Shown here in pieces: positions 12,116-14,500 of a stretch of DNA of 64,000 nucleotides. Made by a program: the position numbers and the translations under genes. Every line of letters starts with the position of its first letter. Positions within the stretch are counted from its first letter, which is position 1. The stretch comes from Trypanosoma brucei (Eukaryota): contig CM000208.1 of assembly GCA_000002445.1 (NCBI GenBank), forward strand, positions 3,680,001 to 3,744,000. Reading direction: 5' to 3'. Below the pieces are notes generated by a model. It had not been told where the DNA came from, made no database searches, and worked only from the letters and a program-made list of their open reading frames with translations.

Positions 12116-14500
12116 ATGGCGCTCTCGCTTGTAGTTGGGTTAGCCAGCGATGCGCTGGAGGGCAGACATAACCATGAGAAACGTTTCGAGGCGTTGCGCG
12201 CACAACTCGGTGGAAGCTCCAGTTGGCGTCAGCAGCAATGTGTCGAAGGTGTTTGTGGTACATTTACTCTGGATGTCCCAATTACTGAAGCGGATGTGGA
12301 CCGGTGGGGAACTCTTCTCAGCGAAAGCGCCCCGCCGCCGGCTCCCCCGAATGCCGCTTTTGCTGGAGGTGGTTTTGTTGACGTTGCAGCATTGTTGGCG
12401 ATGGATAATGAGGGAGACCAGCAGCAGGCGGTGCATAAGCTCGCCCCAATGAAGATGTTTGATCCCAACCAGGTGATTAGACCGGCTATGACAAAAGTGC
12501 TTATGCACCGTCGCAAGTGGCTTCCGTACCGGCAGCGCTTGACCGTTTATCAGTGCCGTACCTCAATCATTGATGCGGTTCTCCGAAACTCAGTAGTGCT
12601 CCTTACCGCCCCACCGGGGAGCGGATGTACCCTACAGCTCCCGCAGATCATATGGGAAACAGAGGTGTTTAAGACAAAGCGCCTCATTATTGTTTGTCCC
12701 ACAACTCTCACGGTTCAACGGACCGTGCAACGGCTGCGAGAGGAACGTGGCGAAGAAGCAACGACGACGACAGTGGGTGAGTGCACTCCAATGTGCTATG
12801 GGGTAACCCCGGGTACGCAGATTGTCGTTACGACTCCGGAAATGTTTGTGCGACAGTTGCTATGTGACCCAATACTCCTTCATGTTGGTTGCGTTATATT
12901 TAATGACATTCACATACGTTCTCCAATAACGGAGTTTTCCCTCTCACTTCTTCGTAGCATGTTGCGGACGCGGGACGAGTGTGGCGTGGGACGACTTGGT
13001 AGTGCGCCGCGTGTTGTGGTTTGCTGTCCTGACGACGCGGTTTCTAATACCATTGCAGAGTACTTTGGAGCTGACCACAGTATGCAGCTGAACCTCCAAC
13101 AGGTGCTTCAACGGGATGTCAAGACGGGGGCAGCCGATGCACTGCGAAGCAGCGGCTCGTACGCATCACCGGTTGTACTCTACCTTGAAGAAACTATGCA
13201 GTGGCTCACAAAGTGCGAGGAGGAGGGAAGCTTTTTGTGTCGTGACCCTGGAGAGGAACTCCGGTGCTATGTGGAAAACATTGGAGTTGTTGCAAAAATA
13301 ATGGCCATGGAAAATGCGGATTTCATGTCAGATGAAAAATTTCGCTCCCACTGGTGCCCTCTCATAGTAAACGCAATTCAGCAACATAGTTTAGCGGAGC
13401 GTAAGGAGCGTGCGACCTTGCTAGCGGAAAATAAGGAAGGGAAGCATCAAGAACTTCGGCAGGGTCACACGGTAGTGGTTGTTGTCGCACCCAACCCTCA
13501 AGTAGTGGCAACTATTGCCCATGCATTGCGCCAGGTGAATGACCAACAGAGGGAGGGGAAAGAAATGGCTCCTTCCATTACTGTTGAAGTATTGCGGGAA
13601 TGCACCACCTCTGATGAATTGCGTCTTCTTTTACGAGAAGGCGGTACGGCAGTGGAGGGCGGTGATCGTTTAGTGTTAGTGGCCACTCCTATTGTGGCAC
13701 AAACTGCGCTTCCACCGTCACTGTCAGTGGGCCTCGTGATTGACTGTGCCCGCCGCTCTTGTGCCACATATAACCCAAATGTTGACACTGATGTATTTTC
13801 CACTTCGTATAGTTACATACAGGAATTGCGGCAACGACGTTCAATTGCCCGTGTGTGTGTGGATAATTCAGGCAAGAAGGAGGAGGAGAGTGGCGTCCCA
13901 GCCCCCATGGTACTGCAGCTAATACCGAAATCTATCCTACACAGCGCCCAACACCGACGTGTGAGCTCTGATCCTGCACACCATTCCATTTTCCACTTAC
14001 CTTGGGTGGATTATGTGCATATATATCACCTGCTGCAAGCCCATGAAGAGGCCTTGTGTTGCCGTGGTCCGTCATCAGCATCCGCCATAGGCAGTTCTCA
14101 CACTGGAAATCTATTGTCACGGAATGTACCCCAACTCGTGTCATCTGCCTTTATCGGTGTTGCTTCACTATCCGCTAGCCGTTATGAGCATCTTAAACGT
14201 ATCTTCATTGCTGTAGAAAATCATTTGGTTCGCCTAGGACACTTGCAGAGACCAAGTGAGGAGCAGTTTGTACCTCGACTTCTGCCACTGGGCGTGGTCA
14301 CGACGTGCTTCGCCCTCCCTATTCCGGTGCTTCGGCTGTTGGTGTGGTCGCGATTGTATGGATGTGTTGTTCCCGCGAGCGTCGTAGCGGCGATTTGGAT
14401 GCTGGGTGATATTTTTTGCACTGTTCAGCACGATGATGAAGCTGCTGAACTTATGCGAGAGTCACGTGTATTTTTTCACATGGCTCCGGGAGCGATGTAG
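12116..14500 (+). CDS. DEAH/RHA-family helicase-like protein with degenerate catalytic motifs (probable pseudo-helicase)
   Basis: Collinear match to DEAH-box motif order. Motif I is APPGSGCTLQLPQI (GSGKT->GSGCT). Motif II is VIFNDIHIRS (DEAH->NDIH). Motif III is VVVCCPDDAVSNTIAEYFG (SAT->CCP). Motif V is VLVATPIVAQTAL...DCARRSCATYNP. Motif VI-like is ELRQRRSIAR. ATG start, 794 aa. Confidence 0.8.
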   Translation: MALSLVVGLASDALEGRHNHEKRFEALRAQLGGSSSWRQQQCVEGVCGTFTLDVPITEADVDRWGTLLSESAPPPAPPNAAFAGGGFVDVAALLAMDNEGDQQQAVHKLAPMKMFDPNQVIRPAMTKVLMHRRKWLPYRQRLTVYQCRTSIIDAVLRNSVVLLTAPPGSGCTLQLPQIIWETEVFKTKRLIIVCPTTLTVQRTVQRLREERGEEATTTTVGECTPMCYGVTPGTQIVVTTPEMFVRQLLCDPILLHVGCVIFNDIHIRSPITEFSLSLLRSMLRTRDECGVGRLGSAPRVVVCCPDDAVSNTIAEYFGADHSMQLNLQQVLQRDVKTGAADALRSSGSYASPVVLYLEETMQWLTKCEEEGSFLCRDPGEELRCYVENIGVVAKIMAMENADFMSDEKFRSHWCPLIVNAIQQHSLAERKERATLLAENKEGKHQELRQGHTVVVVVAPNPQVVATIAHALRQVNDQQREGKEMAPSITVEVLRECTTSDELRLLLREGGTAVEGGDRLVLVATPIVAQTALPPSLSVGLVIDCARRSCATYNPNVDTDVFSTSYSYIQELRQRRSIARVCVDNSGKKEEESGVPAPMVLQLIPKSILHSAQHRRVSSDPAHHSIFHLPWVDYVHIYHLLQAHEEALCCRGPSSASAIGSSHTGNLLSRNVPQLVSSAFIGVASLSASRYEHLKRIFIAVENHLVRLGHLQRPSEEQFVPRLLPLGVVTTCFALPIPVLRLLVWSRLYGCVVPASVVAAIWMLGDIFCTVQHDDEAAELMRESRVFFHMAPGAM

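What the first reader, a model, noticed from the sequence alone, without database searches (positions are those of the whole stretch)
12116..14500. DEAH/RHA-type helicase-like protein in which every catalytic motif is substituted
The translation is collinear with spliceosomal/ribosome-biogenesis DEAH-box helicases, but the residues that bind and hydrolyse ATP are all replaced. The Walker A lysine is gone (GSGCT at ~12612-12632). DEAH is NDIH (~12904-12918). Motif III SAT is CCP. Motif VI QRxGRAGR is LRQRRSIAR. The fold-defining motif V (VATPIVAQTAL...YNP) and the motif spacing are intact. This pattern fits a pseudoenzyme retained as an RNA/protein-binding scaffold, not random decay. The substitutions can be read directly; the function is inference.
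Basis: partly seen in the sequence, partly recalled or inferred. Interest (0 to 1): 0.6.

Follow-up and report, generated by a model that had tools for sequence, protein, structure and literature searches.

The report
Catalytically dead helicase-like trypanosome protein
The flagged ORF is the front 45% of Tb927.10.15360, a conserved nuclear trypanosome protein of 1,769 residues that keeps the fold of a DEAH/RHA RNA helicase but has lost its ATP-hydrolysing residues; in this reference sequence one missing T in a T-run splits the gene in two.

Summary
The window is T. brucei brucei TREU927 chromosome 10, and the ORF is the 5' part of Tb927.10.15360.

- **Wrong end.** The stop at 14500 is not the gene's end. 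The T6 run at 14471-14476 is T7 in two other T. brucei-clade DNAs, and all seven other T. brucei-clade protein sequences on record are uninterrupted (1,768-1,769 aa). The true gene is 12116-17424 and also carries a tryptophan-rich domain, a SURP module and a divergent RRM.
- **Stepwise motif loss.** Deep relatives keep the Walker A lysine; one, in the same gene order, has GVGKT and DEAQ. The named trypanosomatids have GSGRT and DDxH. Only T. brucei has Cys, one C-to-T step from Arg.
- **Still a working gene.** dN/dS is 0.05-0.11 in RecA1. Published proteomics found 47 peptides and about 5-fold nuclear enrichment.

Best reading: a conserved nuclear pseudo-helicase that acts as an ATP-independent scaffold, probably in pre-mRNA processing. 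The function is inferred. I found no dedicated study of it.

The parts
12116..17424 (+). Whole gene Tb927.10.15360 as it reads once the 1-nt deletion is repaired (1,769 codons plus stop). Residue numbers in this report refer to that repaired protein.
   Evidence: The gene ID is assigned by position between H3.V (Tb927.10.15350) and RPAC40 (Tb927.10.15370).
12116..14500 (+). The ORF of the finding: 794 codons. The last 7 residues (HMAPGAM) and the TAG stop are out of frame.
14471..14476 (+). T6 homopolymer run where the reading frame shifts. It is T7 in a Logan T. brucei-clade assembly (L001) and in T. equiperdum OVI (L008).
14476..17424 (+). Continuation of the gene in the next frame (SHGSGSDVVSAFHAYRMW... 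to the stop). The ORF listing reports it as a separate 974-aa ORF starting at GTG 14500.
12491..13075 (+). RecA1-like domain (about aa 126-320). It is the part most similar in sequence to DEAH/RHA helicases.
   Evidence: Pfam DEAD 1.2e-6, 28.8 bits against a cutoff of 26. PDB hits. dN/dS 0.045-0.11. The structure model has low confidence here.
12617..12631 (+). Walker A / motif I remnant G-S-G-C-T. Cys171 (codon TGT) stands in place of the catalytic Lys.
12902..12913 (+). Motif II remnant N-D-I-H in place of D-E-A-H. The Mg-binding Asp is Asn and the catalytic Glu is Asp.
13025..13033 (+). Motif III remnant C304-P-D in place of S-A-T. Cys304 is invariant in the 17-sequence alignment.
   Evidence: The register is read by hand against the canonical helicase P0020.
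13163..13915 (+). RecA2-like domain (about aa 350-600), including an enlarged linker and insert after motif III.
   Evidence: Secondary structure of the model. Weak profile alignment of aa 489-563 to DHX36 RecA2. Fold searches.
13679..13711 (+). Motif V remnant VATPIVAQTAL, against canonical (V)ATNIAETS(I/L)T.
13826..13855 (+). Motif VI remnant L-R-Q-R-R-S-I-A-R-V. Q-R-R is kept; G-R-A-G-R is lost.
   Evidence: aligned with SLRQRRGRAGR of P0020. Conservation.
13913..14814 (+). Winged-helix plus ratchet (HA2-like) region (about aa 600-900). It runs across the frameshift.
   Evidence: The profile matches the HA2 regions of DHX29 (E 3.4e-6) and Drosophila DHX36. Model.
14815..15159 (+). OB-like domain (about aa 901-1015), starting at the TAALYP motif.
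   Evidence: Beta strands 912-1014 in the model. Full-length fold matches. Pfam OB_NTP_bind match below cutoff in the distant relative P0073.
15160..15534 (+). Family-specific tryptophan-rich domain (about aa 1016-1140: RCRGW...WEWW...WLREER). Its kind is unknown.
   Evidence: Many invariant residues. dN/dS 0.14-0.16. No Pfam family reported. None of the 60 PDB hits listed had its best stretch there.
15748..15909 (+). SURP module (about aa 1212-1265: ...FAFLDPEHEFHGYYLHVL).
   Evidence: Pfam Surp is only 13.1 bits in T. brucei. It passes the 21.1-bit cutoff in relatives P0070, P0073 and P0069. The family profile hits only SURP domains in PDB, SF3A1 SURP1 best at 1.2e-7. dN/dS 0.03-0.06.
16876..17088 (+). 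Divergent RRM-fold domain (beta-alpha-beta-beta-alpha-beta), preceded by a PPPLP stretch. It lacks canonical RNP aromatic residues.
   Evidence: AlphaFold model has pLDDT above 95 in the core. The top 50 Foldseek PDB hits are almost all RRM domains, but weak (E 0.01-0.1, TM about 0.6-0.7). dN/dS 0.04-0.05.

Best explanation
Tb927.10.15360 encodes a lineage-specific nuclear pseudo-helicase. Its closest relatives recovered are trypanosomatid; deeper unnamed relatives exist, one in kinetoplastid-like gene order.

**Shown**
- The protein keeps the complete DEAH/RHA architecture: RecA1, RecA2, winged helix, ratchet and OB.
- It has replaced the residues needed to bind Mg-ATP and hydrolyse it: Walker A Lys to Cys, DEAH to NDIH, SAT to CPD, and loss of the second arginine finger of motif VI.
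- Downstream it carries a tryptophan-rich family-specific domain, a SURP module, a long low-complexity linker, a divergent RRM and an acidic tail.
- The whole gene is under purifying selection.
- Published proteomics shows the protein is expressed and nuclear-enriched.

**Inferred**
- It cannot translocate on RNA.
- It works as an ATP-independent platform. The rigid helicase-shaped body and the two small modules hold partner proteins, and perhaps RNA, together during nuclear pre-mRNA processing.
- The SURP module is the likeliest docking site for a splicing factor. Every solved SURP domain that matches it comes from a splicing factor (SF3A1, Prp21, SFSWAP, SF4, SFRS14).

**The split ORF**
- The break into two ORFs in this window comes from a 1-nt deletion in a T7 run of the TREU927 reference.
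- It is most likely a sequence error or an allele-specific lesion. It is not a feature of the gene.
For: - **Motif substitutions, fixed in all eight T. brucei-clade sequences.**
- **Stepwise loss along a rough tree.** Canonical GCGKT/DEVH; then SGKS/DEWQ (P0073); GVGKT/DEAQ (P0070); GKS/DDxH; GRT/DDxH; GRT/NDxH; and GCT/NDIH in T. brucei. P0070 has the same gene order, kinesin then this gene then RPAC40.
- **Single-step origin of Cys.** Arg CGC to Cys TGT is one transition.
- **Purifying selection.** Whole gene 0.14-0.21, RecA1 0.045-0.11, SURP 0.03-0.06, RRM 0.04-0.05. Between two T. brucei-clade alleles there are about 37 synonymous and 25 non-synonymous changes, none of the latter in RecA1, SURP or RRM.
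- **Expression and location.** 47 peptides, log2 nuclear/whole-cell ratio 2.31, p 1.7e-5, above that paper's cut-offs (PMC5519215). Also listed in a proteome table of PMC13056571.
- **SURP.**
- **RRM fold.**
- **Frameshift.**
Against: - No biochemical test exists. Loss of ATPase activity is inferred from residues.
- Relatives with Arg in the P-loop and DDxH could still bind nucleotide, and the glycine-rich loop (S169, G170, T172, Q174) stays invariant, so the pocket may still hold a ligand.
- The structure model is weakest exactly in RecA1 (pLDDT below 50 for most of residues 106-260), so pocket geometry could not be examined.
- Motif Ia arginines are lost in every family member. Canonical RNA binding in the tunnel is therefore doubtful, and the scaffold may be purely protein-binding.
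- No partner is known. The only interaction record found is 3% coverage in an MKT1 pull-down (PMC3985637), and MKT1 is described there in post-transcriptional mRNA control.
- The protein is also well detected in whole-cell lysate.
- The link to splicing rests only on what other SURP proteins do.
Confidence: 0.7

Rival explanations
1. It is still a nucleotide-dependent protein: a non-hydrolysing or slowly hydrolysing NTP-binding switch with a non-canonical active site, not a fully dead scaffold.
For: The P-loop backbone (S169, G170, T172, Q174, P176), Asp264, His266 and Arg268 of the D-E-x-H-x-R block, and Arg574 of motif VI are invariant or nearly so across 17 orthologues. The named trypanosomatids keep a basic residue (Arg) at the Lys position, and deep relatives keep Lys. 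RecA1 is the most constrained large domain.
Against: T. brucei has Cys at the Lys position and Asn at the Mg-binding Asp, with no compensating change seen. The second arginine finger and motif III are lost in every member. From general knowledge of P-loop NTPases, Lys-to-Arg normally abolishes hydrolysis.
Confidence: 0.15
2. The split ORF reflects a real lesion: in strain TREU927 at least one allele of the gene is a frameshifted pseudogene, so the gene is dispensable or haplo-sufficient in that strain.
For: The window carries T6 where two other T. brucei-clade DNAs carry T7. Neither window ORF nor a TREU927 member is present among the seven members of the protein cluster. Only one GenBank protein accession number (EAN78896) lies between H3.V (EAN78895) and UTP11 (EAN78897), although two genes sit there. 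This suggests the gene has no protein record in that annotation, but that is an inference.
Against: A single-base length change in a homopolymer is a typical sequence error. The rest of the TREU927 copy shows no decay: there is one stop in 5,310 nt after repair, and only 3 private amino-acid changes. ORF-splitting indels in neighbouring genes are common in sister assemblies. The ID Tb927.10.15360 is used as a protein entry in proteomics tables.
Confidence: 0.25
3. The frame is restored during expression, by a -1 ribosomal slip or by polymerase stuttering on the run A-UUU-UUU-C, so the split is a programmed feature.
For: A -1 slip of the A-site Phe-tRNA on UUU-UUU would give exactly the residues V-F-F-S-H-G of the intact alleles (read from the sequence).
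Against: Both other T. brucei-clade DNAs examined have an uninterrupted T7, and all seven other T. brucei-clade proteins are uninterrupted. The heptamer is not a canonical X-XXY-YYZ site in the zero frame. The 93 nt downstream fold no better than shuffles (z -0.65).
Confidence: 0.03
4. The resemblance to helicases is superficial and the motif substitutions are an artefact of misalignment.
For: Only Pfam DEAD, just above its cutoff (28.8 against 26 bits), and the below-cutoff AAA_19 hit the T. brucei protein. Helicase_C, HA2 and OB_NTP_bind do not. RecA1 is poorly modelled.
Against: Three independent methods agree over 600-1,150 positions. The profile search of 1.8 billion proteins finds about 21 sequences of this family at E below 1e-60 and then canonical DEAH/RHA helicases from 3e-36. 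The motif register is fixed by flanking conserved blocks: LPxxQ...GSGxTxQxPQ, TxxxxLRxLxxDP and DxxHxR.
Confidence: 0.02

Closest known systems
DHX36 / DHX29 / DHX9 (RHA) / MLE group of DEAH/RHA helicases
   Different: Those are active ATPases with GxGKT, DEAH, SAT and QRxGRAGR. Here all four are altered and motif Ia is lost. There is an enlarged linker between motifs III and IV. The C-terminal half (W-rich domain, SURP, RRM) is not found in them.
   Same: Same superfamily and overall architecture. RecA1 aligns well (E 1e-22 to 1e-13 with the profile).
Known inactive helicase modules, for example the C-terminal cassette of Brr2 and the helicase domain of vertebrate Dicer (from general knowledge, not tested here)
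   Same: A helicase fold kept under selection as a binding or regulatory platform after loss or absence of unwinding activity.
   Different: Those are Ski2-like or RIG-I-like rather than DEAH/RHA, and they sit inside a protein that has another active module. Here the whole protein has no recognisable catalytic part. Brr2 and Dicer appear only as low-ranking generic SF2 fold hits.
DQX1 (DEAQ-box protein; from general knowledge, not tested here)
   Same: A DEAH/RHA relative whose motif II reads DEAQ, the same variant seen in the deep-branching family member P0070.
   Different: No evidence of common descent. DQX1 has no SURP or RRM.
SURP modules of SF3A1 (SURP1), Prp21, SFSWAP and SUGP1
   Same: The family's SURP profile hits only these in PDB, SF3A1 SURP1 best (1.2e-7; SURP2 weaker). 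The signature F-x-F-L-x-P...H-x-Y-Y is kept.
   Different: I know of no other SURP protein attached to a helicase fold (general knowledge). The binding partner here is unknown. The T. brucei module alone is below Pfam's cutoff.

Membership tests
DEAH/RHA helicases (SF2) | Two RecA-like domains followed by winged helix, ratchet (HA2) and OB domains | tested here: met
DEAH/RHA helicases (SF2) | Motif I GxGKT with the catalytic lysine | tested here: not met
   GSGCT in all eight T. brucei-clade sequences. GSGRT in the named trypanosomatids. GKT/GKS only in deep relatives.
DEAH/RHA helicases (SF2) | Motif II D-E-A-H | tested here: not met
   N-D-I-H in T. brucei. [DN]-D-x-H in all 17 aligned orthologues except T. 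grayi (N-D-I-N). Asp264 is invariant in place of Glu.
DEAH/RHA helicases (SF2) | Motifs III (SAT) and VI (QRxGRAGR) | tested here: not met
   C-P-D and Q-R-R-S-I-A-R-V. The G-R-A-G-R half is absent in every family member.
DEAH/RHA helicases (SF2) | Pfam models Helicase_C, HA2 and OB_NTP_bind above their cut-offs | tested here: not met
   Only DEAD (28.8 bits, cutoff 26) and AAA_19 (below cutoff) hit the T. brucei protein. The distant relative P0073 passes HA2_C (23.9 bits, cutoff 21.3) and matches OB_NTP_bind below cutoff (18.8 against 29.5).
DEAH/RHA helicases (SF2) | RNA-stimulated NTPase and unwinding activity | not testable with these tools
   Needs recombinant protein.
Pseudoenzyme (pseudo-helicase) | Clear homology to an enzyme family with loss of catalytic residues | tested here: met
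Pseudoenzyme (pseudo-helicase) | Maintained by purifying selection and conserved across species | tested here: met
   dN/dS 0.14-0.21 for the whole gene and 0.045-0.11 for RecA1. Seventeen orthologues aligned, plus 13 more-distant sequences.
Pseudoenzyme (pseudo-helicase) | Expressed as a protein | tested here: met
   From the literature only: 47 peptides in Lister 427 procyclic cells (PMC5519215 S1A table). Also listed in a proteome table of PMC13056571.
Pseudoenzyme (pseudo-helicase) | Demonstrated absence of catalytic activity | not testable with these tools
   Inferred from residues only.
SURP (SWAP) module proteins | Match to Pfam PF01805 above the gathering score | tested here: inconclusive
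   T. brucei scores 13.1 bits against a cutoff of 21.1. Seven of 17 orthologues match at E up to 0.1. Relatives P0070 (24.4), P0073 (30.2) and P0069 (30.1) pass. The family profile hits only SURP domains in PDB (1.2e-7).
RRM domains | Beta-alpha-beta-beta-alpha-beta fold with RNP1/RNP2 aromatic residues | tested here: inconclusive
   The fold is met: core pLDDT above 95, and the top PDB hits are almost all RRMs. The hits are weak (E at least 0.01), there is no Pfam RRM hit, and the RNP positions carry no aromatic residues (read from the alignment).

The most novel reading that the evidence does not exclude
The family is a trans-splicing-era invention. A helicase that lost its motor became a nuclear adaptor whose SURP1-type module supplies what trypanosome SF3a120 lacks. 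SF3a120 is reported to have only a SURP2-type module (PMC3961280). On this reading the adaptor docks SF1 or a branch-point factor to U2 snRNP or the pre-mRNA without ATP. Separately, the reference strain TREU927 would be a natural frameshift (hypomorphic) allele of it.
Probability: 0.12. Interest if true: 0.7.

Novelty: new variant of a known kind. Interest (0 to 1): 0.45.

Why it matters
- **A clean series of motor loss.** Trypanosomes process every mRNA by trans-splicing, and many of their nuclear RNA-processing factors are lineage-specific and unnamed. This protein shows stepwise loss of a helicase motor (Lys to Arg to Cys; DEAQ or DEWQ, then DDxH, then NDIH) while the fold and two partner-binding modules stay under strong constraint.
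- **A defined candidate.** It is an abundant, nuclear-enriched protein for which I found no dedicated study. It can be tested as an ATP-independent organiser of pre-mRNA processing. It would also be an uncommon example of a DEAH/RHA-type pseudo-helicase.
- **A practical annotation point.** The TREU927 reference sequence breaks this gene at a T-run. Anyone using that sequence alone will mis-size or miss the protein.

Tried and rejected
- **Second word-indexed homologue search.** Run with the alignment of distant members (A4), it returned only generic HrpA and DEAH helicases and no names. The taxa of P0059-P0073 therefore remain unknown. Only synteny and a rough NJ tree place them.
- **Literature.** 'SURP' with default prefix matching was swamped by 'surprising'. 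A whole-word search found only the SF3a paper. Six guessed Leishmania gene IDs, derived from the L. panamensis locus tag, gave nothing.
- **Held supplements with no entry for the gene.** TrypTag, the tethering screen and the RNA-DNA hybrid interactome.
- **AFDB fold search.** Not available.
- **Exact look-ups.** The two window ORFs are not in the protein collection, so no independent TREU927 data could settle whether T6 or T7 is correct.
- **Programmed frameshifting.** No stimulatory structure downstream, and both other DNAs examined have T7.
- **UHM or ULM reading.** I considered this for the RRM and the N-terminal D-R-W motif. I dropped it because helix 1 is not acidic, the Arg of the R-x-F motif is not conserved, and the D-R-W lies in a predicted helix.
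- **'Every catalytic motif substituted'.** Kept only in softened form, because Q-R-R of motif VI, His266 and Arg268 remain.
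Full report
**Where we are**

- Eight proteins encoded in the window are identical to GenBank proteins of Trypanosoma brucei brucei TREU927 on its 4.05-Mb chromosome 10 record. They include a CYTH protein (EAN78894), histone H3.V (EAN78895), UTP11 (EAN78897), two kinesins (EAN78898, EAN78899) and glycosomal malate dehydrogenase (EAN78900).
- H3.V is Tb927.10.15350. Tb927.10.15370 appears in two RNA polymerase III papers, which fits the RPAC40-type gene at that position in the window. 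Tb927.10.15390 appears in two flagellum-attachment-zone papers, which fits the kinesin there.
- A proteome table lists 15330 = CYTH, 15350 = H3.V and 15360 = 'hypothetical protein, conserved'.
- The gene of the finding lies between H3.V and RPAC40, so it is Tb927.10.15360. This assignment is by position.

**Checking the observation**

- ORF 12116..14500 (+, 794 aa) is there.
- Against solved structures, its residues 133-289 align with RecA1 of DHX29, Prp22-, Prp16- and Prp43-type helicases and others (E 1e-11 to 1e-5). GSGCT lies on GSGKS/GSGKT and NDIH on DEVH/DEAH.
- A profile of 17 orthologues raises this to 4.6e-27 for Drosophila DHX36 and 3.1e-23 for DHX29. It also aligns the HA2/ratchet region.
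- Pfam gives only DEAD, just above its cutoff, plus a below-cutoff AAA_19.
- Aligned with canonical helicases:

| Motif | Canonical | T. brucei |
|---|---|---|
| I | GxGKT | GSGCT |
| Ia | TQPRR | VCPTT |
| II | DEVH | NDIH |
| V | TNIAETS | TP-IVAQTA |
| VI | QRRGRAGR | QRRSIARV |

- So motif V is not intact, and motif VI keeps its first half.
- All eight T. brucei-clade sequences have identical motif blocks, so these are not read errors.

**The ORF is only part of the gene**

- ORF1 stops inside the HA2 domain. The expected continuation (SD..[sa]f..Y..W) runs on in the next frame as SDVVSAFHAYRMW.
- The frames meet at a T6 run (14471-14476). One more T gives a single ORF of 1,769 codons, 12116..17424.
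- That protein differs from T. equiperdum OVI SCU68362 at 3 residues, and from T. b. gambiense, T. b. equiperdum and a Logan assembly (P0001) at 23-25 of 1,769 residues. Three further Logan-assembly proteins belong to the same 90%-identity cluster.
- A Logan assembly (L001) and T. equiperdum OVI (L008) have T7 at the site.
- All orthologues found are uninterrupted, at 1,612-1,995 aa.
- Neither window ORF is in the protein collection, and no TREU927 protein is in the cluster. Only one GenBank accession number is free between H3.V and UTP11 although two genes lie there. I infer that the GenBank TREU927 record carries no protein for this gene.
- I could not decide whether T6 is a reference error or a real allele. 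The rest of the copy shows no decay, and ORF-splitting indels are frequent in sister assemblies.
- A programmed -1 slip on A-UUU-UUU-C would restore the frame. It has no supporting downstream structure (z -0.65), and the T7 seen in both other DNAs argues against it.

**Fold**

- An AlphaFold model of residues 1-1143 was built from 17 sequences (mean pLDDT 62.8, pTM 0.68). RecA1 is poorly modelled and the rest is mostly 70-90.
- The model matches full-length DEAH/RHA helicases.
  - Foldseek: DHX36 1.7e-22, DHX29 2e-21, DHX9 and MLE about 1e-20; Prp43, Prp22 and Dhr1 about 1e-16.
- The protein therefore has the whole RecA1-RecA2-WH-ratchet-OB architecture.

**The rest of the protein**

- *W-rich domain.* After the OB domain comes a strongly conserved tryptophan-rich domain (about aa 1016-1140). 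No Pfam family was reported for it, and none of the 60 PDB hits listed had its best stretch there.
- *SURP module (about aa 1212-1265).*
  - It is weak in T. brucei itself (13.1 bits).
  - It passes Pfam's cutoff in three distant relatives.
  - A profile of the region hits only SURP domains in PDB, best SF3A1 SURP1 (1.2e-7), then SFSWAP, Prp21 and SUGP1.
- *Low-complexity stretch.* It follows the SURP module and evolves fast (dN/dS 0.26-0.59).
- *RRM-fold domain.*
  - A PPPLP stretch precedes a small domain modelled with core pLDDT above 95 as beta-alpha-beta-beta-alpha-beta.
  - The top 50 PDB fold hits are almost all RRM domains, but weak (E 0.01-0.1).
  - It has no Pfam RRM hit and no RNP aromatic residues, so it may bind protein rather than RNA.
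- *Tail.* The protein ends in an acidic, serine-rich tail.

**Evolution of the motifs**

- A profile search of 1.84 billion representative proteins finds about 21 sequences of this family at E below 1e-60. There is then a gap to canonical DEAH/RHA helicases, which start at 3e-36.
- Walker A and motif II states:

| Sequences | Walker A | Motif II |
|---|---|---|
| Canonical helicases | GCGKT | DEVH / DEIH |
| P0073 | RSGKS | DEWQ |
| P0070 | GVGKT | DEAQ |
| P0064-66 | [HR]SGKS | DDLH |
| P0068, P0069, P0071 | H[AT]GKS | DDMA / DDLD / DDTA |
| P0018, P0060, P0061 | GSGKT / ESGKT / GCGKT | DDxH |
| Leishmaniinae, Phytomonas and relatives | GSGRT | DDxH |
| T. vivax | GSGRT | DDIH |
| T. cruzi clade | GSGRT (T. 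grayi ASGRT) | NDxH (T. grayi NDIN) |
| T. brucei | GSGCT | NDIH |

- A rough neighbour-joining tree rooted on canonical helicases puts the Lys-bearing forms at the base.
- P0070 sits in a metagenomic contig with the same gene order as T. brucei: kinesin, this gene, RPAC40. Orthology therefore does not rest on sequence alone.
- The GRAGR half of motif VI, motif III and the motif Ia arginines are missing in every member.
- The Arg codon in four relatives is CGC and the T. brucei Cys codon is TGT, so the change is a single transition.
The pattern shows gradual loss, not a strain artefact.
- The organisms behind the unnamed sequences could not be identified.

**Selection and expression**

- Nei-Gojobori estimates:

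| Region | T. conorhini / T. rangeli | L. panamensis / L. martiniquensis |
|---|---|---|
| dS, whole gene | 0.52 | 0.71 |
| dN/dS, whole gene | 0.20 | 0.14 |
| dN/dS, RecA1 | 0.11 | 0.045 |
| dN/dS, RecA2 region | 0.23 | 0.08 |
| dN/dS, WH-ratchet | 0.20 | 0.12 |
| dN/dS, SURP | 0.03 | 0.06 |
| dN/dS, RRM | 0.05 | 0.04 |

- Between TREU927 and another T. brucei-clade allele there are about 37 synonymous and 25 non-synonymous differences. None of the non-synonymous ones lies in RecA1, the W-rich domain, SURP or RRM.
- In the nuclear proteome of Lister 427 procyclic cells, Tb927.10.15360 has 47 peptides. Mean log2 LFQ is 29.1 in nuclei against 26.8 in whole-cell lysate, a nuclear enrichment score of 2.31 with p 1.7e-5. 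The paper's cut-offs are 0.7 and 0.05 (PMC5519215).
- I found no dedicated study.

**Interpretation**

- *Shown.* The protein has a complete DEAH/RHA fold. The residues that bind the ATP phosphates and Mg and activate water are changed. The gene is conserved under purifying selection, and the protein is expressed and enriched in nuclei.
- *Inferred.* The protein cannot hydrolyse ATP or translocate. It acts as a passive platform whose SURP and RRM-fold modules recruit partners in nuclear pre-mRNA processing.
- *Basis for the splicing link.*
  - Every solved SURP domain that matches comes from a splicing factor.
  - T. brucei SF3a120 is reported to have only a SURP2-type module, which leaves room for a separate SURP1-type protein. 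This is a lead, not a result.
- *Against a simple RNA-clamp model.* The motif Ia arginines are lost too.
- *Against complete deadness of the family.* The glycine-rich loop, His266, Arg268 and Arg574 stay invariant or nearly so, and non-brucei members keep Arg or Lys. Nucleotide binding without turnover remains possible in those species.

**Novelty and verdict**

- Inactive helicase modules are a known kind (Brr2 C-terminal cassette, vertebrate Dicer helicase; from general knowledge).
- A free-standing DEAH/RHA-type one fused to SURP and RRM modules, with a readable series of motif loss, is a new variant of that kind. As far as the searchable literature shows, it is undescribed.
- It is of moderate interest to trypanosome RNA biologists and to those who study pseudoenzymes. 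It is not categorically new.
- The most practical finding is that the reference sequence truncates the gene at a homopolymer.

Noticed in passing
window 14471-14476: One-base shorter T-run (T6 against T7 in two other T. brucei-clade DNAs) splits Tb927.10.15360 into ORFs of 794 and 974 aa in the TREU927 reference. GenBank seems to hold no protein for the gene: only one accession number is free between H3.V and UTP11 for two genes.
   Followed up: partly
window 3800-12100 (H3.V gene at 6448-6867): The histone H3.V gene (Tb927.10.15350) stands alone between two unusually long AT-rich, low-complexity intergenic stretches (GC 0.29-0.35, against about 0.5 in the coding region downstream). Every ORF of 200 codons or more but one (19510-20202, minus strand, overlapping the RPAC40 ORF) lies on the + strand.
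   Followed up: no
window 3906-4127: Perfect 107-bp tandem repeat (2.1 copies, 100% match), each copy starting with an (AT)n run, just downstream of the CYTH-domain gene.
   Followed up: no
orthologues of window 22385-25669, 28157-33202 and 34549-35517 in sister assemblies: Neighbouring genes are split in other T. brucei-clade assemblies. The T. equiperdum OVI kinesin is 441 + 1175 aa. The T. b. equiperdum kinesin is 149 + 722 aa, and its glycosomal MDH is 94 + 89 aa. The T. b. gambiense UTP11 is 258 aa instead of 346. ORF-breaking indels are common in these records.
   Followed up: no
L006:1-6314 (ENA metagenome contig ERZ21831265 ctg63595l): A distant family member (P0070: GVGKT, DEAQ, SURP above the Pfam cutoff) lies in the same gene order as in T. 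brucei (kinesin, helicase-like gene, RPAC40), all on one strand. This looks like an unidentified kinetoplastid-like organism in a metagenome.
   Followed up: partly
P0018 (eukprot gene4082-2930_t), C-terminal 300 residues: This Lys-bearing orthologue carries a tubulin-cofactor-C (TBCC) domain at its end (Pfam 1.6e-23). It is most likely a gene-model fusion with the downstream gene.
   Followed up: no
window 15748-15909 compared with T. brucei SF3a120 (Tb927.3.1140): The SURP module here resembles SF3A1 SURP1 more than SURP2 (23 against 15 bits). Trypanosome SF3a120 is reported to contain only a SURP2-type module (PMC3961280).
   Followed up: partly
window 1994-3811: The CYTH-domain protein (Tb927.10.15330) has 605 aa in TREU927 and T. 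equiperdum but is annotated with 699 aa in T. b. gambiense, probably because a different start codon was chosen.
   Followed up: no
P0063 (1,270 aa, unnamed): This is the closest non-brucei relative (57% identity to T. brucei over residues 488-1769), probably another African trypanosome. Its model lacks the N-terminus, so the Walker A state of the nearest outgroup is unknown.
   Followed up: partly
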